The position numbers and the translations under genes are program-made. This document shows positions 5,239 to 47,578 of a stretch of DNA of 64,000 nucleotides, piece after piece; the first letter of the stretch is position 1, and each line of letters starts with the position of its first letter. The notes beneath the pieces are model-generated. The model had not been told where the DNA came from and searched no databases. It saw only the letters and a program-made list of their open reading frames with translations. Origin of the DNA: Escherichia phage vB_Ec-G1. The stretch is from sequence record PQ433349.1. One strand, 5' to 3'.

Positions 5239-5313
5239 GGCCCTGTAGCTCAATGGGAGAGCTGTCGGCTCATAACCGATAGGTAGCTGGATCGAAACCA
5301 GCCAGGGCCACCA
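5239..5313 (+). tRNA. tRNA-Met: tRNA with CAT anticodon (Met/fMet/Ile2 not distinguishable)
   Basis: acceptor GGCCCTG/CAGGGCC, D-stem GCTC/GAGC, anticodon loop CTCATAA, T-arm GCTGG-ATCGAAA-CCAGC, CCA encoded. Confidence 0.75.
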
Positions 5314-5315
5314 AC

Positions 5316-5390
5316 GTCTTTATGGTGTAATGGATAGCACAGGAGTCTTCTAAACTCTTAGTCAAGGTTCGATTCCTTGTAAAGACACCA
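5316..5390 (+). tRNA. tRNA-Arg: tRNA-Arg (anticodon TCT)
   Basis: acceptor GTCTTTA/TAAAGAC, anticodon loop CTTCTAA, T-arm CAAGG-TTCGATT-CCTTG, CCA encoded. Confidence 0.75.
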
Positions 5391-5585
5391 GAACATTTTA
5401 ACATGAATTAGCTCAAGTGATTTGAACCCACTACTGATCATGGTGGCAGAGAATGAGGCAAGTATGTCAGACATTATAAACAAAGGCCACGGTTATATTA
5501 GAAGACATAAATGCTCGAAGAGCACCGTTCGTGGAGAACGGGGGTTGGTGGAGTCACCATTCATGGTAAAATGTTTTAAAAAACT

Positions 5586-5614
5586 ATTGACAACAAACAT
5601 TATTTTATGTTAGA
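5586..5614 (+). promoter_or_regulatory. sigma70-like promoter
   Basis: TTGACA 5586-5591, 17-nt spacer, TTAGAT. Confidence 0.5.
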
Positions 5615-5622
5615 TTATAAAT

Positions 5623-5713
5623 ATGGAAGGGCAAATCGACGTGGCGACGAAAACGGTCTTGAAAACCGCCGAGCTTGAAAGAGCCTTGGGAGTTCGACTC
5701 TCCCTCCTTCCGC
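5623..5713 (+). tRNA. tRNA-Ser: tRNA-Ser (anticodon TGA), long variable arm
   Basis: acceptor GGAAGGG/TCCTTCC, anticodon loop CTTGAAA, variable hairpin GAGC-TTGAAA-GAGC, T-arm GGGAG-TTCGACT-CTCCC, CCA; D-region spacing slightly atypical. Confidence 0.6.
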
Positions 5714-5737
5714 CAGATTGGTAGATTGGTAGATTGG
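5714..5737 (+). repeat. perfect tandem repeat (GATTGGTA)x3 spanning 5' end of tRNA-Ser(GCT)
   Basis: GATTGGTAGATTGGTAGATTGGTG read directly; second copy supplies the tRNA acceptor strand. Confidence 0.8.
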
Positions 5738-5811
5738 TGAAATGGTAGCCACAACAGTTTGCTAAACTGTAGTCGGAAACGGCGTGTAGGTTCGAGTCCT
5801 ACATCTACCGC
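5726..5811 (+). tRNA. tRNA-Ser: tRNA-Ser (anticodon GCT), long variable arm
   Basis: acceptor GGTAGAT/ATCTACC, anticodon stem ACAGT/ACTGT with loop TTGCTAA, T-arm GTAGG-TTCGAGT-CCTAC, CCA. Confidence 0.7.
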
Positions 5812-5941
5812 CAAGTTCTTTTTAATATAGCTTACTTTAATAGAGTAAATTTTCGGCAGATGGCCCCCATCATCTTACCGATACCTCATAGTTAGTGGTG
5901 CGAACACTGGCTATTTTAAAAAGAATTTAAATATTAGTATT

Positions 5942-6029
5942 TAGGTGAGTTAATTCCGTAGGGGTAGCGGGGCAGACTGTAAATCTGTTATCATTGCGAT
6001 TCGGGTGGTTCGACTCCATCACTCACCAC
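5942..6029 (+). tRNA. tRNA-Tyr: tRNA-Tyr (anticodon GTA), long variable arm
   Basis: acceptor GGTGAGT/ACTCACC, anticodon arm GCAGA-CTGTAAA-TCTGT, T-arm GGTGG-TTCGACT-CCATC, CCA; anticodon arm matches E. coli tRNA-Tyr as recalled. Confidence 0.8.
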
Positions 6030-6035
6030 CAAATT

Positions 6036-6121
6036 AAGATGAGTTGGCTGAATGGTTTAAGCAGCGGACTGTTAATCCGTGTTCGAAAGAACAATATAGG
6101 TTCGAATCCTATACTCATCGC
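6036..6121 (+). tRNA. tRNA, probable anticodon GTT (Asn) but with atypical long variable arm
   Basis: perfect acceptor GATGAGT/ACTCATC, T-arm ATAGG-TTCGAAT-CCTAT, CCA; best anticodon arm GCGGA-CTGTTAA-TCCGT; 15-nt extra hairpin GTTC-GAAA-GAAC. Confidence 0.45.
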
Positions 6122-6128
6122 CAGAATT

Positions 6129-6205
6129 ATGGACTTGTAGAGTTAAGGTAAACCCCCAGTCGCCAATAGGCTTCTGGAATTGCAGGTATCGAATCCTGCC
6201 GAGTC
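6129..6205 (+). pseudogene. tRNA-like element, probably non-functional or non-canonical
   Basis: acceptor-like GGACTTG/CGAGTCC and T-arm-like GCAGG-TATCGAAT-CCTGC (8-nt loop) but no convincing anticodon arm and no CCA. Confidence 0.3.
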
Positions 6206-6211
6206 CCAGCA

Positions 6212-6286
6212 TTGCTCCTATAGTATAATGGCTATTACAACGGTTTTGTAATCCGTGGATCTCTGTTCGATTCAGTGTGGGAGCAC
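6212..6286 (+). tRNA. tRNA-Thr: tRNA-Thr (anticodon TGT)
   Basis: acceptor GCTCCTA/TGGGAGC, anticodon stem ACGG/CCGT with loop containing TTTGTAA, T-loop TTCGATT, CCA. Confidence 0.6.
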
Positions 6287-6561
6287 CAACACAACATTAA
6301 GAGCACTGTGATTGATCGTCGTATCCTGTGCACAAGGTCTGCTCGAAAGACAGTGTTCTTAGTATTGTGTTGATCACAAAAAGAGTCACCCGAAACTTGA
6401 CCGGAGTAGGGTTGGATGGGGCAAAATGAGAAGCGGCTCTCCCATCGACAGCAACGAAGAATAATATTTGACTTTGGTTTTGTATTATTTTAAGTTAGCT
6501 TACCGAACGTAGGGCTAGTCACCCAACGGGATACTCGTCACTGTCCCAATCAATAAAAGTC

Positions 6562-6591
6562 TTGACAACAAATAGTAAAATGTAGTATAGT
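6562..6591 (+). promoter_or_regulatory. sigma70-like promoter upstream of tRNA-Gly
   Basis: TTGACA 6562-6567, 18-nt spacer, TATAGT. Confidence 0.55.
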
Positions 6592-6602
6592 AAATATATA
6601 GG

Positions 6603-6676
6603 GCGTTCTTGGTGTAGCGGTAGCATTCCGTCCTTCCAAGTCGGCGGCACGAGTTCGATCCTCGTAGAACGCTCCA
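6603..6676 (+). tRNA. tRNA-Gly: tRNA-Gly (anticodon TCC)
   Basis: acceptor GCGTTCT/AGAACGC, anticodon loop CTTCCAA, T-arm ACGAG-TTCGATC-CTCGT, CCA. Confidence 0.7.
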
Positions 6677-6772
6677 AATTATTTAATAAAGGGTTGCCAG
6701 AAAACTTTCTCTTTTACTCATGGTTTTCTCCTTCTCTCACACTTCTTCTGGTTGCCCTTCATTAAATGATTT

Positions 6773-6850
6773 ATTGGTTTGTAGTGTAGTCCGGTAGCAC
6801 ACGACACTTTGACTGTCGTAGGTTTGGTTCAAATCCAGACAGACCAGCCA
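6773..6850 (+). tRNA. tRNA-Gln: tRNA-Gln (anticodon TTG)
   Basis: acceptor TGGTTTG/CAGACCA (U1-A72), anticodon arm CGACA-CTTTGAC-TGTCG, T-arm TTTGG-TTCAAAT-CCAGA, CCA. Confidence 0.7.
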
Positions 6851-6855
6851 TATAA

Positions 6856-6932
6856 CGGAGTTTAGCTCAGTTTGGTAGAGCATACGCTTTGGGAGCGTAG
6901 GGTCGCAGGTTCGAATCCTGCAATTCCGACCA
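6856..6932 (+). tRNA. tRNA-Pro: tRNA-Pro (anticodon TGG)
   Basis: acceptor CGGAGTT/AATTCCG, D-stem GCTC/GAGC, anticodon arm TACGC-TTTGGGA-GCGTA, T-arm GCAGG-TTCGAAT-CCTGC, CCA. Confidence 0.8.
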
Positions 6933-6938
6933 ATTAAA

Positions 6939-7012
6939 TGTTTCGTAGTTCAATGGTAGAACCCACGACTGATAATCGTGAGACACAAGTTCGATTCTTG
7001 TCGAAACAACCA
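6939..7012 (+). tRNA. tRNA-Ile: tRNA-Ile (anticodon GAT)
   Basis: acceptor TGTTTCG/CGAAACA, D-stem GTTC/GAAC, anticodon arm CACGA-CTGATAA-TCGTG, T-arm ACAAG-TTCGATT-CTTGT, CCA. Confidence 0.8.
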
Positions 7013-7014
7013 GT

Positions 7015-7084
7015 TTCCCGTTAGACTTACAGGATAAGAGTTCCACAGCTTATTGTGATGCTGGTTCGAATCCAGCACGGGATA
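7015..7084 (+). tRNA. tRNA-like gene, anticodon unresolved (possible pseudo-tRNA)
   Basis: T-arm GCTGG-TTCGAAT-CCAGC and acceptor TTCCCGT/ACGGGAT (1:72 mismatch) but only a 4-bp CACA/TGTG stem with 6-nt loop where the anticodon arm should be; no CCA. Confidence 0.35.
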
Positions 7085-7090
7085 CATAAT

Positions 7091-7169
7091 AGCGGGATAG
7101 AGGAGTCTGGTCGTCCTCGCCAGTTTCATATGCTGGAGATCATCGGTTCAAATCCGATTCCCGCCTCCA
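7091..7169 (+). tRNA. tRNA-Met: tRNA with CAT anticodon, second copy (1:72 mismatch, initiator-like feature)
   Basis: acceptor AGCGGGA/TCCCGCC, D-stem GAGG/CCTC, anticodon arm CCAGT-TTCATAT-GCTGG, T-arm ATCGG-TTCAAAT-CCGAT, CCA. Confidence 0.65.
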
Positions 7170-38732: not shown

Positions 38733-41700
38733 ATGGCAACATTCCCAACATATCCAGCAACGTCTCTCGAACAGGGCGTAGACCTGGTTATTTTCTCATC
38801 TAACCAACTCCATGATGTTATTAATGGAAGTGCTACAGAGAGTATTGAAACAGAATCAGGGTTGATACCAACCCTGAGAAAAGCCCTTGTTGACAACTTT
38901 TTCTTTAAAAGCCCATTGGATTGGGCGCAAGGCACAAACGAAACAGTTTTTAACCAACTTCGTTATTTCCAGAATGGAGTATTGAGCGGTTATTACTATG
39001 CCCCTAACGCTACATTGGTTAACCCAATCCCTATGCAAGGGACTCCAGTAGGAGATAACAACTGGGTATTGTGGGGACTGAAAACAGAACAATTAGCAAC
39101 AGAAGTCACCCCGTGGGTATACTCTGGTGCAACGGGTTATGAAACAGTAATTAGTCCTCCTTACATCTTTGATAGTGCTATTGTTACGATCAATGGTGTT
39201 ATTCAGGTTCTGGGGGAAGCTTTCCGTATAGAAGATAGTAAGATCATCCTATCTGAACCTTTGGGACACGATCCTGCAACAGGACTGCCAAACAAGCTTT
39301 TTGCTTACATTGGTAAAATCGTAGCTTCCGCAGATACAGATCCTAACCTAGAGAACCGTCTTGTCAGTTTAGAAACAAAAACGGAAGAACTAACAGAAAG
39401 CATGGATAAAGTCCCTCTGCAAACTATTGCTCGTAAATATGGTTTGTTAGATGATGAGGTGGCTTACGCAACAGCAGGTCAATCGTTAACAGGGATTAAA
39501 GCTCTGTATGATCCAGTAGCACAGTCTTCCTACACATTACCTCCTAACATCACAGGAACTTTAACATCCTTGTCTGTTTCTGGAGTAATGACTTATTCTG
39601 GGGGGTCTGTAGATCTTTCTGCACTAGCTGTTGAACGTGGACAGTTTGTTCATTTGCCTACAAGCTTTGGTAATAACGTAACTCTGACAGCTAAAAATCA
39701 GACGATTGGACGTGGTGCTGGTCGTTATCGTTGGGCTGGAAGTTTACCAAAAAGTATTTTGGCCTCCGATACATTGGAGACAAGTGGTGGATTAGGTCCA
39801 AATGCATGGGTTCTGACCAATACAGAAGGACTGTTAACCCCTCGTGGTGGAACATACAACGATTTATTCGATGTTGTCTACTTGTCAGAATTTGCTAACA
39901 ACACAACAACATATACCACACCAGAAGCAGCTTTCCAAGCGGCACTGTTAGCAGCAAAAGCTTCGAAAAGCAAGATTCTCGATGCTTACGGTTGCGATAT
40001 GACTTTCACGACAAGCTCTTTTGATATTCAAGGTATCACTTTGCGTGGGGGTGTGTTCCGTGGTCAACGCGACTATCGTGTGCAAAATGCTACAGTAGAA
40101 GGCACAACTTTCCGTAACTCTCGTGTTATGTATTGGGGTGGTGCTGTGCGCATGTTCGATTGTTTGTGGGACGGTGCTCCTCGCGCAGGTCAAGTTGGTA
40201 GCTTGGTATTCCAAGGCAACCCAATATCAGGTACTTTTGAAATTGATAATTGTACTTTTAAAAACGGGTTGTATGGCATCCTTCAACAAGGAACAGGGGA
40301 ACCAGTAACACGTGGTGTCTTCCGTAACCTTACCTTCATGGACATGCAAGGTGATGCAATAGAACTGAACGTCATCAATAAACATTATGACGATGGTTGT
40401 GTGATTGAGAATATTTACCTGTCTAATATCGATGGGACTAACGCTCCTATTCCTCTGTCCAACTGGGGTATCGGTATCGGTGTAGCTGGTAAAGGACCAT
40501 ATGGTTACGGAATCCCTGATGATCAATATTGCAAGAATATTACAATTCGTAACGTTTTTGCAAAACGTTGTCGTCAGATTGTCCACGTAGAAGTTGGTCG
40601 TAATATCTCTATCGAAAACATTCATGGCGATCCAGACCAGACCGTATCTGTTGGGACAGGTTTGGCAACTGGCGCAGTTGTAATGTACGGAAGTAAAGAT
40701 TTTACGATTGACGGTGTTTACGGAGAGCCTAAAACAGACGGTAGCACACTTGCAAGTAATATCCGTATGATTTATTTGGAGTGGGGAACTAACGCAGTTC
40801 TGGACGGAGAGGGTAATCCGGTAGTTCCGGCACAGGGTAGACCTTCAAACCCATGCTTTAACTATTCTGTTCGTAATATTCATACCAAAACTGGACGTGT
40901 TTTTGCGGGAGTTTCCGCTGGGCCAGGTTATGAAAACAGAGTTAGCTTTGAAAATATTCGTTGCGCTGCATTGCAGTTGTTCGGTATAGCTTCTTGGCTT
41001 TCAATGTCTAACATCACCTGTAATATCTTCGATTGTGTTGGTCAACCTGAATCTGGTCCAGGGACATTTTATGATGGATTCTTCCGTAGAGAAAAATCTG
41101 TTCTTGAAATGGTTAACGTAAACTGTTACCCAGATGGCAAGACGATGGTTACTGGTCGTCCACAGTGGAGCCGTTGCCGTTACTCGGATATTCATCGTGT
41201 CAACTGTAATGTTGAAGCTAATATGTATACCAATATCGCAGGTGGTATTGGAGCTATTGTAGGGACAACGGGCAAAGTTTATTACTTAGAGCCTAATCCT
41301 AGTCGAAACATTGATGGAATGCATTTCCCAACAGGGAAAGAGTTTGACAAAGGGGATATGATAGTCAAGGCGGATAATACGTTCTTCCTTGTAACAACAA
41401 GTGGGGCATATATTCCAGATATCCCAGCTTTCGGTATTCGAGCTACACAGGCAGGAGATACCTTCCTGACACAGAACTTGACTCCTAACGGGACAGCAAC
41501 AAATGCTTCTTGGTTGTATCATTACCCTCTGTCAGCAGGGACACGTATCCGTATTCCTGGTGCTGGCGTAGGTGGAGCAGATTTGGACACAGTTATTACT
41601 CGTGCACCTTATCAAGATAATGATACGTGGACTAACCCAGTTAAAATAGACATTGCAGATCCAATTGTAACGCCTACAAGTGCTGGAGTTAGAATTAAAA

Positions 41701-41786
41701 CCATACCTAATGATTCCAGTAATGTTTCTGTAGGTAATACTGCGGTTATTCGCCCAACGCCAGTAGTAGATGTGCCAACAACCTAA
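38733..41786 (+). CDS. large tailspike/fibre with parallel beta-helix repeats (second putative depolymerase)
   Basis: 1017 aa; repeated beta-helix-like rungs (NCTFKNGLYGIL..., NLTFMDMQGDAIELNV..., IENIYLSNIDG..., NITIRNVFAKRCRQIVHVEVG...). Confidence 0.6.
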   Translation: MATFPTYPATSLEQGVDLVIFSSNQLHDVINGSATESIETESGLIPTLRKALVDNFFFKSPLDWAQGTNETVFNQLRYFQNGVLSGYYYAPNATLVNPIPMQGTPVGDNNWVLWGLKTEQLATEVTPWVYSGATGYETVISPPYIFDSAIVTINGVIQVLGEAFRIEDSKIILSEPLGHDPATGLPNKLFAYIGKIVASADTDPNLENRLVSLETKTEELTESMDKVPLQTIARKYGLLDDEVAYATAGQSLTGIKALYDPVAQSSYTLPPNITGTLTSLSVSGVMTYSGGSVDLSALAVERGQFVHLPTSFGNNVTLTAKNQTIGRGAGRYRWAGSLPKSILASDTLETSGGLGPNAWVLTNTEGLLTPRGGTYNDLFDVVYLSEFANNTTTYTTPEAAFQAALLAAKASKSKILDAYGCDMTFTTSSFDIQGITLRGGVFRGQRDYRVQNATVEGTTFRNSRVMYWGGAVRMFDCLWDGAPRAGQVGSLVFQGNPISGTFEIDNCTFKNGLYGILQQGTGEPVTRGVFRNLTFMDMQGDAIELNVINKHYDDGCVIENIYLSNIDGTNAPIPLSNWGIGIGVAGKGPYGYGIPDDQYCKNITIRNVFAKRCRQIVHVEVGRNISIENIHGDPDQTVSVGTGLATGAVVMYGSKDFTIDGVYGEPKTDGSTLASNIRMIYLEWGTNAVLDGEGNPVVPAQGRPSNPCFNYSVRNIHTKTGRVFAGVSAGPGYENRVSFENIRCAALQLFGIASWLSMSNITCNIFDCVGQPESGPGTFYDGFFRREKSVLEMVNVNCYPDGKTMVTGRPQWSRCRYSDIHRVNCNVEANMYTNIAGGIGAIVGTTGKVYYLEPNPSRNIDGMHFPTGKEFDKGDMIVKADNTFFLVTTSGAYIPDIPAFGIRATQAGDTFLTQNLTPNGTATNASWLYHYPLSAGTRIRIPGAGVGGADLDTVITRAPYQDNDTWTNPVKIDIADPIVTPTSAGVRIKTIPNDSSNVSVGNTAVIRPTPVVDVPTT

Positions 41787-41848: not shown

Positions 41849-43873
41849 ATGAATTTAACAAGACCTAATAGTGCGATAGCCGATCTGGTAGAAGCTACTT
41901 ATCGAAAACGTCGCAGCTTTGAGGCAGGTTTTACATTACGTAATTCCCGTGAAGTTTTGCTGTTAGCAGCAGAAGGGAATTATTACCAATGGAAAGGAAC
42001 TTTTCCTAAAGTAGTTCCAGCAAACTCTACGCCAGCCACCACAGGTGGTATTTCTTCCCTTGCATGGCAAAGTGTTGGGACCGCTGATGATATAGCAATT
42101 ATCAATGCCAAGTTTACGGCAATGCAGCAACAGATTGATGATCTGTCGGAAACAATACCTGAAGCTGGTAAATCGGCTTATCAGATCGCACTTGATAATG
42201 GTTTTGTTGGAACAGAAGCACAATGGCTTGCTTCTTTGAAAGGGGATACTGGTGCTCAACTTAATATTAAAGGATCATTAGCAAGCACTAGTGAACTACC
42301 ATCCACAGGTAACGTTGCAGGGGATGGTTATATCGTAGGTGATGTAATCTACGCTTGGGATGGTTCTGTTTGGAAACTTATTTCTTCTCTTGGGCCAGAA
42401 GGTAAATCAGCTTACGAGGTATGGTTGGCAGATGGTAATACAGGATCTGTTTATGATTTTCTTACCTCTATAAAAGGTGATAAAGGCGATGTTGGTCCTA
42501 CAGGGCCACAGGGAGCACCTGGTGTTAACGCCAACGGTTTTGATTATCGTGGGGATTTGCCTTCTACAAGTAACTTACCACAACCTAACTCTGAAAACGT
42601 AAGCCAAGCTTATTCTATCAATGGTAATCTTTATGTCTCTAATGGGACAGCTTGGGTCAACATGGGTAATATTGTTGGTCCTCAAGGTCCACAAGGTGAG
42701 GCAGGTAAAGACGGTCTAGATGGAACAGATGGGGATGAAGGGAAATCTGCATATCAAAGTTGGCTGGATGCTGGTAATGAAGGGACAGAAGTAGATTTTA
42801 TTGCCTCACTTAAAGGTCCAAAAGGAGACAAGGGTGATCAAGGAGAGCGAGGTCCACAAGGTGAACTAGGTCCACAAGGACCAGTGGGTGCAACAGGATC
42901 AGGCTTAGAGATTATCGGGGTTCTGAACAGTGAAGCTGAACTTCCTCCTACTGGAGAAGTAGGTGATGCATATAAAATTAATAATGATTTGTATGTTTGG
43001 GTTCAAGATGCTACGGAATGGATGAATGTTGGCAGTCTTGGAGGAACATCAATTACAGCTAAAGGTCATGTTCCGAACAGTGAAGCTCTCCCTGTTTATA
43101 ATAACTATGGTGATGCCTACTTAACTGAAGATACTAGTAATCTTTACATCTATACCTACGATCAAGACACCAATTCCGCATCTTTTGTTGACATGGGAAG
43201 TATTAAAGGCGACAAAGGTGAAAAAGGGGATAAAGGAGATAAGGGTGATCCTGGAACAAACGGAACCAACGGTACTAATGGGACCAACGGTAAGGACGGC
43301 GCACAGTGGTTTGTAGCAACAACTAATCCAGTCGCAGGTGATGGTGTTATCAATGATTACGCTTTCAATACTACCACTGGGGCAGTGTTTAAGAAAACAG
43401 ATTCTTCTACGTGGACACTTATAGGAACTCTTCCTAGTATACCAGAAGCCCCTCAAGATGGCTTGACGTATGGTCGTTCTGATGGAAACTGGATCGAAAT
43501 ATCAGGATCAGATCCTACGGAAGCTATAACACCAACTAGAGTTACAGCAGGTTTCATGGAACTTGAAACAACTACTGCCAACTCTGGAGCATCTTGGACT
43601 CCTTCTGGAACTTCCAATATGTATGTTGTTACAGTAACTGATGCTCTGACAGTTGGAGCATGGCCTGGTGTCACTGGCTCTACAAAACCTAAAGCGTTTT
43701 CAGCAATGATTTATTTGATTCAAGATACAACGGGACACACGGTTACACTAGATGCGTCTTATGGAGCACTAAATGATACAGAAATAGCAACTGCTGCTAA
43801 CGCAGTAACAATTTTGCAATTAACGTATCCTGGTGTGGGTGATATCGTGGACATGGTTGTTGTAACACGATAA
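41849..43873 (+). CDS. collagen-like tail fibre protein
   Basis: 674 aa; Gly-X-Y runs (GPQGPQGEAGKDGLDGTDGDEGK; GDKGEKGDKGDKGDPGTNGTNGTNGTNGKDG) and three ~30-aa repeats GKSAYxxWLxxGxxG...SLKG. Confidence 0.7.
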   Translation: MNLTRPNSAIADLVEATYRKRRSFEAGFTLRNSREVLLLAAEGNYYQWKGTFPKVVPANSTPATTGGISSLAWQSVGTADDIAIINAKFTAMQQQIDDLSETIPEAGKSAYQIALDNGFVGTEAQWLASLKGDTGAQLNIKGSLASTSELPSTGNVAGDGYIVGDVIYAWDGSVWKLISSLGPEGKSAYEVWLADGNTGSVYDFLTSIKGDKGDVGPTGPQGAPGVNANGFDYRGDLPSTSNLPQPNSENVSQAYSINGNLYVSNGTAWVNMGNIVGPQGPQGEAGKDGLDGTDGDEGKSAYQSWLDAGNEGTEVDFIASLKGPKGDKGDQGERGPQGELGPQGPVGATGSGLEIIGVLNSEAELPPTGEVGDAYKINNDLYVWVQDATEWMNVGSLGGTSITAKGHVPNSEALPVYNNYGDAYLTEDTSNLYIYTYDQDTNSASFVDMGSIKGDKGEKGDKGDKGDPGTNGTNGTNGTNGKDGAQWFVATTNPVAGDGVINDYAFNTTTGAVFKKTDSSTWTLIGTLPSIPEAPQDGLTYGRSDGNWIEISGSDPTEAITPTRVTAGFMELETTTANSGASWTPSGTSNMYVVTVTDALTVGAWPGVTGSTKPKAFSAMIYLIQDTTGHTVTLDASYGALNDTEIATAANAVTILQLTYPGVGDIVDMVVVTR

Positions 43874-43875
43874 CA

Positions 43876-43900
43876 GAAGCCCCGAAAGGGGCTTTCTTTT
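43876..43900 (+). terminator. rho-independent terminator
   Basis: GAAGCCCC-GAAA-GGGGCTTTC then TTTTT. Confidence 0.7.
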
Positions 43901-43914
43901 TATGGAGGGTTTAA

Positions 43915-46587
43915 ATGTTTCCAATTCCAATATTTACTATTATGACCAGCACTGGTGTCGTTCCTCTGCCAGCAGGTATTGTTAAAAAAGTAATTACTTT
44001 AGATTACCCAGATAACGCTGGTAATTCTAACAGCAGTTTAGCAATTTTGCTTAATGATGGTAGATTGTTTACTCAAGGTGCAAACCTCTTTGGTGAGATT
44101 GCAGATGGAACTCGTAGTGCACGATTCAATAATTTCCACTTAGCTTCTACTGTAGTAGCAGATGTGTTTACCGCAGATCGTTGTTTTGTTATTAAAACTA
44201 ACAGTGGGGGATGGCAATATTCAGGATTGACAGCAGGGTTGGTAGGATCTATAGCAGCAGGTGGTACGGATGCATGTGTAACTACTTGGACCAGCTTTCC
44301 ATCTGTGATAACAGGGACTATTTCTTTAGCCAATCTTAAAGAGGTTAAAGGAGGGTATAACAATACTCTCTGGTTAATGAATAGCGGCGTTCTTTATGGA
44401 TCGGGTCAAAACACAGTAGGCAGTTTAGGTGCAAGTACTACTAACGAAGTTTCTACTCCTCGTCAGATAACAAGCGCAGCAGTTGCTTTTGATGCAGGTT
44501 ACAACCAATGCTCTTATGTCAACAATGTGGGAACCTTGCGTGTTTGTGGAGCTAGTAAAGGTTTAGCAGGTAATAATAACACAACAACAGCTTTTGTCAA
44601 TGCCAAGATATCCGCTACTGAAACAGTGTATGTCAAAGATTACATCAATACAGTTTCCCAGACAATAGTTGTAGGAGATACCTCCGGTGGCACGGGTACA
44701 GTAAACTACTTATATGTTAGATCTAATACAGAAACAACCTACACTAAACTGGATACCTTTGCAGCAGGTTTCTCAACATGGAAGTTTCCACCAAGCCGCC
44801 ACTCTTTTTTCGTTGGGATCAATAATTCCTTGTGGGCTATTGGTAAGAACTACACTGCAAACTTAGGTTTGGGGTATGATTCTGCGAGCGGAGATCCACT
44901 CCAAGTGGGAAAACCAGTTAAACCTGAAGGAGTGGGTTCCTGGGATATAAACAAGCTCACAAGCGTTCATACGCTGAATATGGATGTTACTAACCAATTA
45001 GGTTATCAAGGAACCTTTTTCGTTTATAATGGAGATATGTATTATTCCGGTATTTGGAAAGATGGGAAAGCCTCGTATCTGTTCAATAGTGGTCTAAACT
45101 ATAATAAATTCACACCAATAGCAAGCTCCGTGATTACGGGTGATATTCTGGCAACTGGTTTAACTACAGATTCTTTAGGAATTTGTATTGTAGGTGGAAC
45201 TAAACAGTTGACACATTCTGTTAGCCCAGAAGGAGGTAAACTTTTCAATATTAAATACACTTCTTCTGCCCCTCCAAACATGACAATATCATCTACTGGT
45301 TTAATGACTTTCCATGCAGAAGGTGGTTTTGATGCAGGTATGACAGCCTTAAACGCTGAAGGAACAACTTTATCAGATACCTCTGGAGGATATGCTTCAA
45401 CATTGAGCGTTTACACCCCTAGCTTATCTGCGATGGATGTAGGAACAACACAAACAATGGTAGCAGAAATAACACCAACAGGAGCAGCAAGCTTACCTGA
45501 TATGGTTGTTGAGTATACAACTACAGATCCTAATGTTGCTACAGTAGATCCTACAACTGGTGTAATAACTGGTGTTGGTGATGGTGGTTGTAGGATTGGT
45601 TGCACAGCTACGTATCAAGGTGTTGTTACCGCTTCTGATAGTTCTTATTTAACGGTGAATGCTGTTGCGGGAAAGGAGTTAGCTCCATCTCCGAGTAGTA
45701 GTTTAACGGTTCTAAACGGATATTTCAACCACTCGGCAGATGGGGCAATTACGTTCCCAACTTTATCGGGTACTGTTACACCAGCTAACTTTGTAGTTAA
45801 GGTGGATGACGTTGTAGTTCCTTCAAGTAAAGTAATATTTAGAAACAAAGCTTTCTCTACAGTGGATAGTTATCCAGCAGGAGAATATAGACTGACTATT
45901 GAATTTGCAAGTGCTTCAGTAGTTAATAGTGTGGAAGTGTCTATGGAAGCAAACCCAAGTCTTTTAGAACTTTGGGGCGGTAATAGAATCAGTTATTCTA
46001 CAAGCCCAGCCTCACAATTCTTAAAAGGTTGTGCTAACTTAAGACGAATAACTTCTGATTGTTTTAGTAACACATCTTACACCGGAACATCTATAAGCGG
46101 TATCTTCTCTGGCTGCACAAGTTTGACAGCTATCCCTGAAGGATTATTCAGTGATGCTTTATTTCCTTCAATGACAACAATGTCAAGCACGTTTGAAGGT
46201 TGTACATCTTTAACATCTATTCCTTCAGATTTATTTAAGAATCTGTCAAAAGTTACAAGATATTCTTACACCTTTAAAGATTGCACCTCTCTTGCAGAAG
46301 TTCCAGCAGGAATGTTTGATAATATTCCAACGAAAGTGACCTCTTTAACAGCTACATTCCAAGGTTGTTTAGGACTTACAGATTTTAATAAGATCTTTAA
46401 TGACAACCCAGGGTTAACTGTTTGTGGTAAACGTGGAGCATTATCTTCTTTCTTTAGTGGATGCACAAATCTTACAGGAACAGGAACAACATTAACAAAT
46501 ACATTAGGCGGAGTAGCTAATAGTTACCTATTCAGGTATTGCACAAAACTTTCTGATTATAACAACATTCCTTCGGGTTATAAATAA
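43915..46587 (+). CDS. tail fibre / receptor-binding protein with Ig-like (Big_2-like) region and C-terminal BspA-type leucine-rich-repeat-like units
   Basis: 890 aa; C-terminal repeats FSGCTSLTAIP, FEGCTSLTSIP, FKDCTSLAEVP, FQGCLGLTDF, FSGCTNLTG; upstream DPNVATVDPTTGVITGVGDG Ig-like signature. Confidence 0.6.
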   Translation: MFPIPIFTIMTSTGVVPLPAGIVKKVITLDYPDNAGNSNSSLAILLNDGRLFTQGANLFGEIADGTRSARFNNFHLASTVVADVFTADRCFVIKTNSGGWQYSGLTAGLVGSIAAGGTDACVTTWTSFPSVITGTISLANLKEVKGGYNNTLWLMNSGVLYGSGQNTVGSLGASTTNEVSTPRQITSAAVAFDAGYNQCSYVNNVGTLRVCGASKGLAGNNNTTTAFVNAKISATETVYVKDYINTVSQTIVVGDTSGGTGTVNYLYVRSNTETTYTKLDTFAAGFSTWKFPPSRHSFFVGINNSLWAIGKNYTANLGLGYDSASGDPLQVGKPVKPEGVGSWDINKLTSVHTLNMDVTNQLGYQGTFFVYNGDMYYSGIWKDGKASYLFNSGLNYNKFTPIASSVITGDILATGLTTDSLGICIVGGTKQLTHSVSPEGGKLFNIKYTSSAPPNMTISSTGLMTFHAEGGFDAGMTALNAEGTTLSDTSGGYASTLSVYTPSLSAMDVGTTQTMVAEITPTGAASLPDMVVEYTTTDPNVATVDPTTGVITGVGDGGCRIGCTATYQGVVTASDSSYLTVNAVAGKELAPSPSSSLTVLNGYFNHSADGAITFPTLSGTVTPANFVVKVDDVVVPSSKVIFRNKAFSTVDSYPAGEYRLTIEFASASVVNSVEVSMEANPSLLELWGGNRISYSTSPASQFLKGCANLRRITSDCFSNTSYTGTSISGIFSGCTSLTAIPEGLFSDALFPSMTTMSSTFEGCTSLTSIPSDLFKNLSKVTRYSYTFKDCTSLAEVPAGMFDNIPTKVTSLTATFQGCLGLTDFNKIFNDNPGLTVCGKRGALSSFFSGCTNLTGTGTTLTNTLGGVANSYLFRYCTKLSDYNNIPSGYK

Positions 46588-46651: not shown

Positions 46652-47578
46652 TTAGAAGCAATGCAGGAAGTTTCTACCATATTGCAGTCCAATAGGGGCA
46701 AATGGAATATCATCATCGAAGTCCATTGGAGGTTCTTCTTGATTACTTGGTTCTGGTTGTGGTTCAGGTTTCTTCTCTTCTTTCTTCTCTTCTTTCTTAG
46801 GTTGTTCTGCGGAACCACGAATGGCAGCAGCAACTTTATCAGACAGAGCCAGAACTTTACGAGCAGAATCAATCAGATCTTCTACAGATACAGTCTTAAT
46901 GGTATGGTCTTTACAAGCATTGAGAATAGCGTGACCAACAGATGCCCCAAGATCATAATCATTAATATCAACGCCACGAGATTCAGCAATTTCAGATTTC
47001 AGCGTGACAGTTGCAGATTGAACAACCCCAGCGATATCGAAAGCATCGCCTTTAACACCATTACGAATCAGTTCCAGTGCACCATTTACTGCGTGACCAG
47101 TTTCCAGACCTACAGTATCACGTTTTTTATAGGACTGTTTAGGAGCAGCATCGTTGGAACCTTTATTGCCAGAAGATTTGTTAGACTTCTGAACACCATC
47201 GGTAGACAATACTGTAATACGAGATTTTTTAGTATTGTAGTAAGTTTTACCGCCTTTATTATCAACGCGATCAATATCAATACTTACTTCTACACCTTTT
47301 TCAATAGTGATCCAATTATCACCTTCTTTGACTTGCAGGTTTTCATAACCTTCTTTCAGTTCAATATCACCAAGAGAAATCCAAACACCTTTCTCATCTG
47401 GTTTAGCACCTTTCTCTTTCAGAACAAGAGAAGCTCGGTGAGTTGAAACAATCGTTTTTCCTTCCCAATGAAAAGTTTTAGGTTCAGCGAATTTATCCAG
47501 TTTAACGTAGTCTACGATACCAGTTGCATAAGTTACGGTTTTGCCTTTACGATCAGTTTCAGTATTAATTACGGACAT
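46652..47578 (-). CDS. ssb: single-stranded DNA-binding protein
   Basis: 308 aa; OB-fold-like N-terminus, Gly/Lys-rich linker, acidic C-terminal tail ending DFDDDIPF; RBS GAGGAGA. Confidence 0.8.
   Translation of the reverse strand: MSVINTETDRKGKTVTYATGIVDYVKLDKFAEPKTFHWEGKTIVSTHRASLVLKEKGAKPDEKGVWISLGDIELKEGYENLQVKEGDNWITIEKGVEVSIDIDRVDNKGGKTYYNTKKSRITVLSTDGVQKSNKSSGNKGSNDAAPKQSYKKRDTVGLETGHAVNGALELIRNGVKGDAFDIAGVVQSATVTLKSEIAESRGVDINDYDLGASVGHAILNACKDHTIKTVSVEDLIDSARKVLALSDKVAAAIRGSAEQPKKEEKKEEKKPEPQPEPSNQEEPPMDFDDDIPFAPIGLQYGRNFLHCF

What the first reader, a model, noticed from the sequence alone, without database searches (positions are those of the whole stretch)
41849..43873. Collagen-like fibre with triplicated ~30-aa modules
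The protein has Gly-X-Y tracts of up to about ten triplets and three copies of a module GKSAY(Q/E)xWL(A/D)xGxxG..(Y/V)DF(L/I).S(I/L)KG(D/P)KGD. The nucleotide runs encoding GTNGTNGTNGTNG (around 43260-43290) are prone to slippage, which could vary fibre length.
Basis: seen in the sequence. Interest (0 to 1): 0.45.

Follow-up and report, generated by a model that had tools for sequence, protein, structure and literature searches.

The report
Collagen-like lateral tail fibre of phAPEC8-type phage
This gene is the already annotated collagen-like tail fibre of a phAPEC8-type E. coli phage, a beads-on-a-string trimer; its last Gly-X-Y tract is where relatives gain and lose triplets, but it is not a fast-slipping DNA repeat.

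Summary
ORF 41849-43873 (+, 674 aa) has four Gly-X-Y tracts of 5, 7, 9 and 10 triplets and three copies of a ~30-aa GKSAY module (pairwise z = 12-19 against shuffles).
- four to five copies of a ~47-aa beta module;
- a T4-foldon-like motif;
- an N-terminal tailspike-type domain;
- a phiTE-type C-terminal domain.

The window is a Phapecoctavirus. The gene is 99% identical to phAPEC8 gp087 and orthologous to phi92 gp151 ("potential tail fiber"). GenBank records already call orthologues collagen-domain lateral tail fibres.

The slippage idea is partly supported.
- **For:** across orthologues, length differences concentrate in tract 4, the KGD/GTN tract (2-12 triplets), and in tract 2 (4-10). Within clusters of at least 90% identity, at least 7 of 8 indel events fall in tract 4. 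One Phapecoctavirus isolate (ASO2A) has lost exactly one GTN unit.
- **Against:** the DNA units differ at synonymous sites, and the longest exact repeat is 10-12 nt. Nearly all of the roughly 70 close isolates have the same 2025-nt gene.

This looks like slow triplet gain and loss in a tolerant spacer, not programmed hypervariation. Virion location is still unresolved, even for phi92 gp151 in 2026. The gene is ordinary and already known, so interest is low.

The parts
41849..43873 (+). CDS of the 674-aa collagen-like tail fibre protein. It is the orthologue of phAPEC8 gp087 (G377_gp087) and phi92 gp151.
   Evidence: ORF list. 99.1% nt identity to NC_020079 96254-98278. PHROG 15437 matched end to end at 1338 bits.
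41882..42079 (+). N-terminal tailspike-type domain (aa 12-77, Pfam Tail_spike_N PF18668). It is the presumed docking or neck domain.
   Evidence: Pfam E = 1.3e-19, 70.5 bits against a cutoff of 25. PDB sequence hits to CBA120 TSP1/3/4, G7C gp63.1 and other tailspikes, E from 1.8e-13 to 2.6e-5.
42089..42154 (+). Predicted long alpha-helix (aa 81-102), probably a short trimeric coiled coil.
   Evidence: The AF2 monomer model has helix H81-102. Coiled-coil pairing is inferred.
42161..42253 (+). Module A copy 1 (aa 105-135, EAGKSAYQIALDNGFVGTEAQWLASLKGDTG), predicted as a two-helix unit.
   Evidence: AF2 helices H110-116 and H123-130.
42254..42400 (+). Module B copy 1 (aa 136-184), predicted as a four-stranded beta unit with the LPxxGxxGDxY...W motif.
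   Evidence: AF2 strands E139-144, 159-163, 166-170 and 175-178 with pLDDT about 81-86.
42395..42487 (+). Module A copy 2 (aa 183-213).
42476..42523 (+). Collagen-like tract 1 (aa 210-225, 5 triplets). Its length is invariant in all orthologues examined.
42524..42676 (+). Module B copy 2 (aa 226-276).
42677..42742 (+). Collagen-like tract 2 (aa 277-298, 7 triplets). It ranges from 4 to 10 triplets among orthologues.
42734..42826 (+). Module A copy 3 (aa 296-326).
42815..42898 (+). Collagen-like tract 3 (aa 323-350, 9 triplets). It ranges from 7 to 9 among orthologues.
   Evidence: TRF finds a period-18 array at 42839-42880.
42899..43048 (+). Module B copy 3 (aa 351-400).
43049..43207 (+). Module B copy 4 (aa 401-453), with a longer insert.
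43208..43300 (+). Collagen-like tract 4 (aa 454-484, 10 triplets: GDK GEK GDK GDK GDP GTN GTN GTN GTN GKD G). It is the indel hotspot of the family, ranging from 2 to 12 triplets.
43253..43291 (+). DNA encoding GTNGTNGTNGTNG. The 9-nt units are imperfect. ASO2A lacks 43259-43267.
43298..43435 (+). Probable divergent fifth B-like beta module (aa 484-529).
   Evidence: B1 against B5 gives z = 6.5, but other pairs are not significant. AF2 predicts four strands with pLDDT 74-91. It falls below the threshold of the module HMM.
43436..43504 (+). Foldon-like motif (aa 530-552, SIPEAPQDGLTYGRSDGNWIEIS), a predicted beta-hairpin trimerisation clamp.
   Evidence: 13/22 identical to the T4 fibritin foldon. 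PDB phmmer E = 0.002-0.004 to isolated foldon chains. A534, P535, D537, Y541, R543 and W548 are invariant in orthologues. Relatives pass Pfam Fibritin_C. AF2 predicts a hairpin at E541-544 and E547-550.
43520..43870 (+). C-terminal beta-sandwich domain (aa 558-674, Pfam PF26209 Phage_phiTE_241_C in precomputed annotation). It is the presumed receptor-binding tip.
43876..43905 (+). Intrinsic-terminator-like hairpin (GAAGCCCC GAAA GGGGCTTT) plus a T run, directly after the stop codon.
   Evidence: The same site is annotated as a terminator in phAPEC8 and ASO2A.

Best explanation
The gene encodes one of the lateral tail fibres of a Phapecoctavirus (phAPEC8-like myovirus).

**Shown by sequence.** The chain runs in this order:
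- a tailspike-type N-terminal domain;
- a helix;
- a shaft that alternates three two-helix 'A' modules, four to five beta 'B' modules and four short Gly-X-Y tracts;
- a foldon-like motif;
- a phiTE/rV5-type C-terminal beta-sandwich.

**Inferred assembly and function.**
- Three chains assemble in register. The foldon-like hairpin, the helix and the small modules act as trimerisation and registration nodes.
- The Gly-X-Y tracts form short collagen triple helices. At 97 residues and 0.286 nm per residue, they total about 28 nm.
- The result is a segmented, semi-flexible 'beads-on-a-string' fibre.
- The N-terminus docks on the baseplate-associated fibre or tailspike complex, next to the colanic-acid tailspike gp088. 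The C-terminal domain binds a host surface structure.

**Length variation.**
- The collagen tracts are spacers whose exact length is only loosely constrained. Whole-triplet insertions and deletions therefore accumulate, overwhelmingly in tract 4 and also in tract 2.
- They probably arise by occasional replication slippage or unequal recombination on short (5-10 nt) imperfect repeats.
- The process is slow and evolutionary. It is not a programmed hypervariable switch.
For: **Identity and context**
- Searches give the PHROG match, the 99% identity to phAPEC8 gp087 and the orthology to phi92 gene 151.
- The gene lies in the baseplate and tail-fibre block, between the colanic-acid tailspike and another tail protein.

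**Domains**
- Tail_spike_N.
- Collagen.
- Foldon-like motif.
- C-terminal domain.

**Repeat modules**
- They are significant within the protein.
- They recur at 1-21 (A) and 1-11 (B) copies in more than 160 homologous phage fibre proteins.
- In the AF2 monomer model the A modules are helix pairs, the B modules are four-stranded sheets and the C-terminal domain is confident. The Gly-X-Y tracts have low confidence, as expected for a chain that needs partners.
- The best Foldseek hit in the PDB is the trimeric Pa223 capsid spike, E = 3.2e-4. The authors of the 2026 phi92 structure paper report the same resemblance for gp151 (PMC13450770).

**Length variation**
- Tract 1 always has 5 triplets, tract 3 has 7-9, tract 2 has 4-10 and tract 4 has 2-12.
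- At least 7 of 8 recent indel events are in tract 4, which is 4.6% of the protein. The binomial probability is 3e-9.
- ASO2A has a 9-nt deletion inside the GTN run.
- The units are imperfect.
- Length is constant in nearly all close isolates.

**Precedent**
- Collagen domains of EHEC prophage fibre proteins differ in length by multiples of three residues, and those proteins form trimeric dumbbells (PMC3368898).
Against: - No direct evidence that the protein is in virions was found. The phAPEC8 and phi92 2012 papers are not held.
- The 2026 phi92 cryo-EM study could not fit predicted gp151 into any of the three fibre densities.
- The PF18668 domain sits at the very N-terminus here, with only 11 residues before it. 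In solved tailspikes it lies 65-210 residues in. Its docking role is therefore an assumption.
- Triple-helix formation by tracts of 5-10 triplets with only 16% Pro is inferred, not shown.
- Only monomer models were available.
- The receptor is unknown.
- The mutational mechanism (slippage versus recombination) cannot be told from the sequences.
Confidence: 0.75

Rival explanations
1. The KGD/GTN tract would be a slippage-driven, adaptive length tuner: copy number changes often within phage populations and adjusts how far the tip reaches through capsule or O-antigen.
For: - Tract 4 is the indel hotspot.
- One close isolate differs by one unit.
- TRF detects period-9 arrays here. Two of the only four arrays scoring at least 50 in the 64-kb window lie in this gene.
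Against: - The units differ at synonymous sites. The longest exact repeat is 10-12 nt, which is ordinary for this window.
- Apart from ASO2A and the frameshifted SKA64, every close isolate whose hit row I could inspect has the same 2025-nt span. All listed full-length members of the 168-member cluster are 674 aa.
- The observed range within a cluster is 1-4 triplets, about 1-3.5 nm, on a fibre that is probably tens of nanometres long.
- No link to host or capsule type was seen.
Confidence: 0.12
2. The protein is not a tail fibre. It would be a head, neck or whisker-type fibre, by analogy with T4 fibritin (foldon) and the Pa223 capsid spike.
For: - It has a foldon-like motif.
- The best structural match is the Pa223 capsid spike.
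- Predicted phi92 gp151 did not fit the tail-fibre densities.
Against: - The N-terminal domain is the tailspike-type PF18668. The same domain occurs in the adjacent colanic-acid tailspike.
- The gene sits inside the baseplate and tail-fibre block, flanked by tail proteins.
- The C-terminal domain is shared with tail fibres of phiTE and rV5-type phages.
- Foldon-like motifs are common in homologous tail fibre proteins.
Confidence: 0.08
3. The Gly-X-Y tracts do not form collagen triple helices. They would be flexible Gly-rich linkers between independently trimerising globular modules.
For: - The tracts are short (5-10 triplets).
- Proline is scarce, at 16% of X/Y positions overall and 5% in tract 4.
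- AF2 gives them pLDDT below 50.
Against: - Strict Gly periodicity is kept without a single interruption in all four tracts, and in every orthologue despite sequence turnover. All indels are whole triplets. That is the signature of a triple-helix constraint, not of a linker.
- 45% of X/Y positions are charged, as is typical of bacterial and phage collagens (general knowledge).
- Low pLDDT is expected in a monomer model.
Confidence: 0.08

Closest known systems
[quoted passage not shown] 2012 as tabulated in PMC5380687) and phAPEC8 gp087
   Same: They are orthologues. phAPEC8 gp087 is 99% identical in DNA. phi92-type proteins are about 60% identical over the full length with the same domain order.
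   Different: phi92-type proteins have shorter tracts 2 and 4 (5 and 5-6 triplets) and are 653-656 aa. Neither protein has an experimentally assigned position in the virion.
EHEC prophage collagen-like proteins EPclA-D (Ghosh et al. 2012, PMC3368898)
   Same: They are phage fibre proteins with Gly-X-Y domains flanked by trimerisation domains. Trimeric dumbbell or beaded shapes were seen by EM. Collagen domains differ between alleles by multiples of three residues.
   Different: The flanking domains there are PfN, PCoil, PfC and Pf2 (PF08400, PF06820, PF03406). None of these hits this protein. EPcl proteins have one or two long collagen domains, not four short tracts interleaved with A and B modules.
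T4 fibritin foldon (Pfam Fibritin_C PF07921) and engineered collagen-foldon fusions (e.g. PDB 1NAY)
   Same: The 22-residue core is 59% identical. The equivalents of the foldon Glu, Tyr, Arg, Asp-Gly turn and Trp are all present. It sits on the C-terminal side of the collagen-like shaft, as in designed fusions where a foldon nucleates the triple helix (the 1NAY hit is; the nucleation role is general knowledge).
   Different: It is not at the C-terminus of the protein and is followed by a 117-aa domain. The Pfam HMM did not report it in this protein. Fibritin's shaft is a coiled coil, not collagen.
Bacillus anthracis BclA and Streptococcus Scl1/Scl2 collagen-like regions (recalled from the literature, not read here)
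   Same: These are surface filaments in which the number of Gly-X-Y triplets is polymorphic between strains. In BclA the number sets filament length. NCBIfam gives sub-threshold collagen-region hits to SclA, SclB and Lcl.
   Different: Those are bacterial proteins with one long, highly repetitive tract and large copy-number ranges. Here the tracts are short, imperfect at the DNA level and nearly invariant among close isolates. The NCBIfam scores (35-62 bits) are far below the cutoffs (325-500), so this protein is not a member.
Pseudomonas phage Pa223 capsid spike gp52 (PDB 9NY6)
   Different: Identity is 10-14% with no sequence-level relationship. It is a capsid decoration of a podovirus, with no collagen tracts, no A modules and no foldon.

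Membership tests
Collagen triple-helix repeat proteins (Pfam PF01391; bacterial and phage collagen-like proteins) | Uninterrupted (Gly-X-Y)n repeats | tested here: met
   There are four tracts of 5, 7, 9 and 10 triplets. Pfam scores 46.5 bits against a cutoff of 27.2. Gly periodicity and whole-triplet indels are conserved in orthologues.
Collagen triple-helix repeat proteins (Pfam PF01391; bacterial and phage collagen-like proteins) | Adjacent trimerisation or registration domain | tested here: inconclusive
   Sequence and prediction show a foldon-like motif, a predicted helix at aa 81-102 and small modules. Trimerisation itself was not tested.
Collagen triple-helix repeat proteins (Pfam PF01391; bacterial and phage collagen-like proteins) | Triple-helical conformation (CD signature, protease resistance, cooperative melting) | not testable with these tools
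   Only monomer AF2 models were available, and the tracts have pLDDT below 50.
Stephanstirmvirinae tail fibre orthologue group (PHROG 15437; phAPEC8 gp087 and phi92 gp151) | Full-length sequence homology and conserved position in the tail-fibre gene block | tested here: met
   PHROG 15437 covers aa 1-674 at 1338 bits. DNA identity to phAPEC8 96254-98278 is 99.1%, with the same neighbours.
Stephanstirmvirinae tail fibre orthologue group (PHROG 15437; phAPEC8 gp087 and phi92 gp151) | Presence in the virion as a baseplate-attached fibre | not testable with these tools
   No proteomic or EM assignment was found in the papers held. phi92 gp151 is still unplaced in 2026.
Tailspike N-terminal domain family (Pfam PF18668 Tail_spike_N) | HMM match above the gathering score | tested here: met
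   70.5 bits against a cutoff of 25, covering aa 12-77. PDB relatives include CBA120 TSP1/3/4 and G7C gp63.1.
T4 fibritin C-terminal foldon (Pfam PF07921 Fibritin_C) | HMM match above the gathering score | tested here: not met
   Pfam reported no PF07921 hit for the whole protein or for aa 484-674, even at E up to 10. Relatives P0016 and P0020 do pass, at 36.6 and 37.2 bits against a cutoff of 21.
T4 fibritin C-terminal foldon (Pfam PF07921 Fibritin_C) | Foldon core motif with its key residues (Pro, Glu...Arg pair, Tyr, Asp-Gly turn, Trp) | tested here: met
   IPEAPQDGLTYGRSDGNWIEIS against [22 protein letters not shown] gives 13/22 identities. PDB phmmer E is 0.002-0.004. The residues are invariant in orthologues. 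So it works like a foldon, but membership by the Pfam criterion is not established for this protein.
Hypermutable simple-sequence (slipped-strand) contingency loci | A run of identical or near-identical tandem DNA units | tested here: not met
   The GTN units differ at 1-3 of 9 positions. The longest exact repeat is 10 nt in the tract and 12 nt in the gene, within the range seen in other 2-kb pieces of the window. TRF reports 75-78% matches.
Hypermutable simple-sequence (slipped-strand) contingency loci | Frequent copy-number differences between very close isolates | tested here: not met
   Among about 70 Phapecoctavirus records, only ASO2A differs in this tract, by 9 nt. All listed full-length members of the 168-member cluster are 674 aa. 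Other clusters of at least 90% identity do show differences of 1-4 triplets.
Hypermutable simple-sequence (slipped-strand) contingency loci | Length heterogeneity within one population (read level) | not testable with these tools
   No sequencing reads were available.
EHEC prophage collagen-like proteins (PfN, PCoil, Col, PfC) | PfN (PF08400), PfC (PF06820) or Pf2 (PF03406) flanking domains | tested here: not met
   None of these families was reported by the Pfam scan at E up to 0.1. The family definitions are taken from PMC3368898.

The most novel reading that the evidence does not exclude
The total collagen length of this fibre may be tuned under selection. In this reading, tracts 2 and 4 act as adjustable spacers that set the reach of the phiTE-type tip relative to the other receptor-binding proteins of the multivalent 'Swiss-army-knife' baseplate. 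Different lineages would then be matched to different envelope thicknesses. A possible hint is that orthologues with a long tract 2 (9-10 triplets) have a short tract 4 (2-5), and the totals stay within 23-33 triplets. A by-product would be that modules A and B, which have no Pfam family or solved structure, are a general, reusable phage 'fibre construction kit'.
Probability: 0.1. Interest if true: 0.5.

Novelty: already known. Interest (0 to 1): 0.2.

Why it matters
The practical value is modest.

- **Domain map.** The report gives a residue-level domain map for a fibre protein whose orthologue, phi92 gp151, is still unplaced in the newest cryo-EM work. It also shows which segments tolerate length change, which is useful for fibre engineering or for building trimer models to fit into low-resolution density.
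- **Undescribed modules.** Two very widespread fibre-shaft modules (A: GKSAY..G..GT...WL.SLKG; B: LP..G..GD.Y...LYVWDG..W...G) have no Pfam model and no solved relative. A structural study of one fragment would annotate thousands of phage proteins.
- **No new biology.** The finding itself does not reveal new biology.

Tried and rejected
1. **IMG/VR scan for relatives.** I wanted a distribution of tract lengths. Only one close relative turned up, and the rest were about 30% identical multi-module fibres. I used the GenBank phage records and the protein clusters instead.
2. **PDB profile searches with modules A and B.** Module A gave only chance-level hits (ankyrin designs, HincII). Module B gave marginal hits (8y6v gp184 at E = 0.02, a DUF2793 protein at E = 0.075). 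I did not use these as evidence.
3. **Pfam and NCBIfam on the modules.** No family was found. The NCBIfam hits to SclA, SclB and Lcl are collagen-composition matches far below the cutoffs, so I rejected membership.
4. **Solved structure of the C-terminal domain.** The phiTE fibre chain 9cuy_g matches by sequence. However, the paper modelled only the N-terminal residues of the short and long tail fibres (3-92 and 14-171), so there are probably no coordinates for the tip.
5. **Literature on virion proteomics.** The phi92 (2012) and phAPEC8 (2012) papers are not held. A keyword search found nothing relevant.
6. **EP57 486-nt in-frame deletion and SKA64 76-nt duplication as evidence of repeat-mediated rearrangement.**
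   - The EP57 junction has no homology and does not join equivalent module positions. That genome is also about 20 kb short.
   - The SKA64 duplication shifts the frame.
   - Both could be assembly artefacts, so I did not count them.
7. **Antisense ORFs (e.g. 43162-43353, PLVPLVPLV...).** These are mirror images of the Gly-X-Y codons, not genes.
Full report
**1. What is at the coordinates**

The interval 41849-43873 is one ORF on the + strand, with an ATG start, encoding 674 aa. A terminator-like hairpin and T run follow it directly at 43876-43905. The same site is annotated as a terminator in phAPEC8 and ASO2A.

The protein contains four uninterrupted Gly-X-Y tracts:

| Tract | Residues | Triplets |
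|---|---|---|
| 1 | 210-225 | 5 |
| 2 | 277-298 | 7 |
| 3 | 323-350 | 9 |
| 4 | 454-484 | 10 |

Pfam Collagen scores above its gathering threshold.

The GKSAY module occurs at residues 107, 185 and 298. The three copies align with 14-18 identities over about 30 residues, and their scores lie 12-19 standard deviations above shuffled controls. GTNGTNGTNGTNG is encoded at 43253-43291.

**2.

- **A second repeat.** It is about 47 aa, with consensus NGLTIKGSLASTAELPATGNEAGDAYLIGGNLYVWDGTAWVNVGSLK.
  - It occurs at residues 136-184, 226-276, 351-400 and 401-453, with z = 5.5-12.
  - Residues 484-529 are a probable divergent fifth copy. B1 against B5 gives z = 6.5, and the predicted four-strand layout is the same.
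- **The N-terminus.** Residues 12-77 are a tailspike-type domain, Pfam PF18668, E = 1.3e-19. It has solved relatives in CBA120 TSP1/3/4 and G7C gp63.1.
- **A foldon-like motif.** Residues 530-552 (SIPEAPQDGLTYGRSDGNWIEIS) are 13/22 identical to the T4 fibritin foldon (PDB E = 0.002-0.004).
  - The equivalents of the foldon Glu/Arg pair, Tyr, Asp-Gly turn and Trp are invariant or nearly invariant in orthologues.
  - The Pfam Fibritin_C model does not report this protein, but it does report relatives.
- **The C-terminus.** Residues 558-674 are a confident beta-sandwich.
  - AF2 pLDDT is 84-90.
  - It is homologous to the C-terminus of the phiTE tail fibre, E = 6.6e-12. The precomputed Pfam name is Phage_phiTE_241_C.
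  - It is also homologous to the C-termini of rV5-type fibres, at about 51% identity.

Profile scans of the homologues retrieved find module A at 1-21 copies and module B at 1-11 copies per protein, in more than 160 proteins. Neither module has a Pfam family or a sequence relative in the PDB.

**3. Identity**

The window is a Phapecoctavirus (Stephanstirmvirinae).

- The gene is 99.1% identical in DNA to phAPEC8 96254-98278 (G377_gp087, 'tail fiber protein').
- It lies between the colanic-acid-degrading tailspike gp088 and the RCC1/Big_2 tail protein gp086, downstream of baseplate wedge and short-tail-fibre genes.
- PHROG 15437 ('tail fiber protein') matches end to end.
- The phi92 orthologue is gene 151, listed as a 'potential tail fiber' from Schwarzer et al. 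2012 (PMC5380687).
- GenBank records already call orthologues 'collagen triple helix repeat protein' or 'lateral tail fiber protein with type I collagen domain'.

The BASEL paper states that it is unclear which genes make which of the three lateral fibres in this group (PMC8594841). A 2026 phi92 cryo-EM study lists gp151 as a fibre candidate and notes its similarity to the Pa223 capsid spike. That study could not fit gp151 into fibre density (PMC13450770). My Foldseek search of the AF2 model independently returned the same Pa223 spike as the only significant PDB hit, E = 3.2e-4.

**4. How it most likely works**

The domain order is shown by sequence: tailspike-type N-domain, helix, A-B-A-col-B-col-A-col-B-B-col-B, foldon-like motif, C-terminal domain. 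The rest is inferred from the known behaviour of these elements.

- The protein is probably a homotrimer.
- The foldon-like hairpin, the helix and the small modules probably set the chain register.
- The Gly-X-Y tracts probably form short triple helices.

The 97 tract residues would span about 28 nm. X/Y positions are 16% Pro and 45% charged, which is typical of prokaryotic collagens by general knowledge.

The strongest argument for a real triple-helix constraint is comparative. Gly periodicity is never broken, and every indel in these tracts is a whole triplet, despite extensive sequence turnover. The AF2 monomer model agrees with the module picture: helix pairs for A, four-stranded sheets for B, and low confidence for the Gly-X-Y tracts. 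The N-terminal docking role and the C-terminal receptor-binding role are inferences from homology and position.

**5. The slippage hypothesis**

At the DNA level the tract is not a clean repeat.

- The GTN units are GGAACAAAC, GGAACCAAC, GGTACTAAT and GGGACCAAC.
- The longest exact repeat is 10 nt in the tract and 12 nt in the gene. That is unremarkable compared with other 2-kb pieces of the window.

Among close isolates the length is almost fixed.

- 69 of 70 phage records cover the gene. Every hit row I could inspect spans 2025 nt, with two exceptions.
- ASO2A lacks 43259-43267, exactly one GTN unit.
- SKA64 carries a frame-shifting 76-nt duplication elsewhere in the gene, which may be an artefact.
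- All listed full-length members of the 168-member protein cluster are 674 aa.

- Among orthologues of 622-681 aa, length differences concentrate in tracts 2 and 4.
- Tract 1 always has 5 triplets, tract 3 has 7-9, tract 2 has 4-10 and tract 4 has 2-12.
- Within clusters of at least 90% identity, at least 7 of 8 indel events are whole triplets in tract 4, which makes up 4.6% of the protein. The binomial probability is 3e-9.

I conclude that tract 4 is a tolerant spacer. It gains and loses triplets occasionally, probably through short imperfect repeats. It is not a contingency-type hypermutable locus. Each triplet changes the length by about 0.9 nm, and no adaptive role is shown. EHEC prophage collagen-like fibres show the same multiples-of-three allelic length variation (PMC3368898).

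**6. Rivals**

- **Adaptive, high-rate length tuner.** It cannot be excluded without read-level data or engineered variants, but the evidence above argues against it.
- **Head or neck fibre.** The foldon-like motif, the Pa223 similarity and the failed fit in phi92 suggest this. The tailspike-type N-domain, the gene position and the tail-fibre C-domain argue against it.
- **Plain flexible linkers.** The strict triplet conservation argues against this.

**7. Verdict**

The object is an already annotated gene of a known kind. Three points remain modestly interesting:

- the unresolved position of this fibre in the virion;
- the two widespread shaft modules that no database describes;
- the natural pairing of collagen-like tracts with a foldon-like motif.

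Noticed in passing
L002 (Escherichia phage SKA64, OM362897), insertion after the position equivalent to window 42242: There is a 76-nt tandem duplication of the DNA encoding GKSAY module 1. It shifts the reading frame, and the record annotates only a 545-aa downstream CDS. It could be a real mutant or an assembly artefact.
   Followed up: partly
L084 (Escherichia phage vB_EcoM_EP57, OR544956), equivalent to window 42802-43287: There is an in-frame 486-nt deletion that removes collagen tract 3, B modules 3-4 and most of tract 4, leaving a 512-aa protein. The junction shows no homology. The genome record is only 130.7 kb against about 150 kb for relatives, so an assembly problem is possible.
   Followed up: partly
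window 5239-7169: A cluster of 10 phage tRNA genes includes Gly(UCC), Thr(UGU), Asn(GUU), Pro(UGG) and Gln(UUG). These are the residues that dominate the collagen-like tracts of this fibre. No codon-usage test was done.
   Followed up: no
window 38733-41786 (gp088 orthologue, colanic-acid-degrading tailspike): This protein carries the same PF18668 domain internally (aa 302-361). Its residues 9-114 hit PHROG 4549, the family whose C-terminus matches residues 558-674 of the collagen-like fibre. This points to domain shuffling among the receptor-binding proteins and possibly a shared docking scheme.
   Followed up: partly
window 43915-46587: This 890-aa tail protein combines an RCC1-like beta-propeller, Big_2 Ig-like domains and a weak DUF285-like repeat region at the C-terminus. 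By size it is probably the protein reported as TfpM1 (890 or 891 aa), which is absent from Justusliebigvirus (PMC12695924).
   Followed up: partly
window 46769-46798: A perfect 12-nt tandem repeat (TTTCTTCTCTTC, 2.5 copies) lies in the intergenic region between the convergent tail gene and the replication-module genes.
   Followed up: no
window 42161-43207 and homologues P0001-P0120: The A (GKSAY...SLKG) and B (LPxxGxxGDxY...W...G) modules recur at 1-21 and 1-11 copies per protein in more than 160 phage fibre proteins from very different hosts. They have no Pfam-A family and no sequence relative of solved structure.
   Followed up: partly
phage records: Records labelled as Acinetobacter (ABPW7) and Klebsiella (ZCKP1) phages carry this gene at 98.4-98.7% nt identity. 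Records labelled Campylobacter and Pseudomonas also appear among the hits. The listed Campylobacter phages A145 and A110a match only the phi92-type gene, at about 72% identity over 40% of a 321-nt query. The host labels may reflect a broad host range, contamination or mislabelling.
   Followed up: no
orthologue set: Orthologues with a long collagen tract 2 (9-10 triplets) have a short tract 4 (2-5), while those with 4-8 in tract 2 have 5-12 in tract 4. The total stays within 23-33 triplets. This has not been corrected for phylogeny.
   Followed up: no
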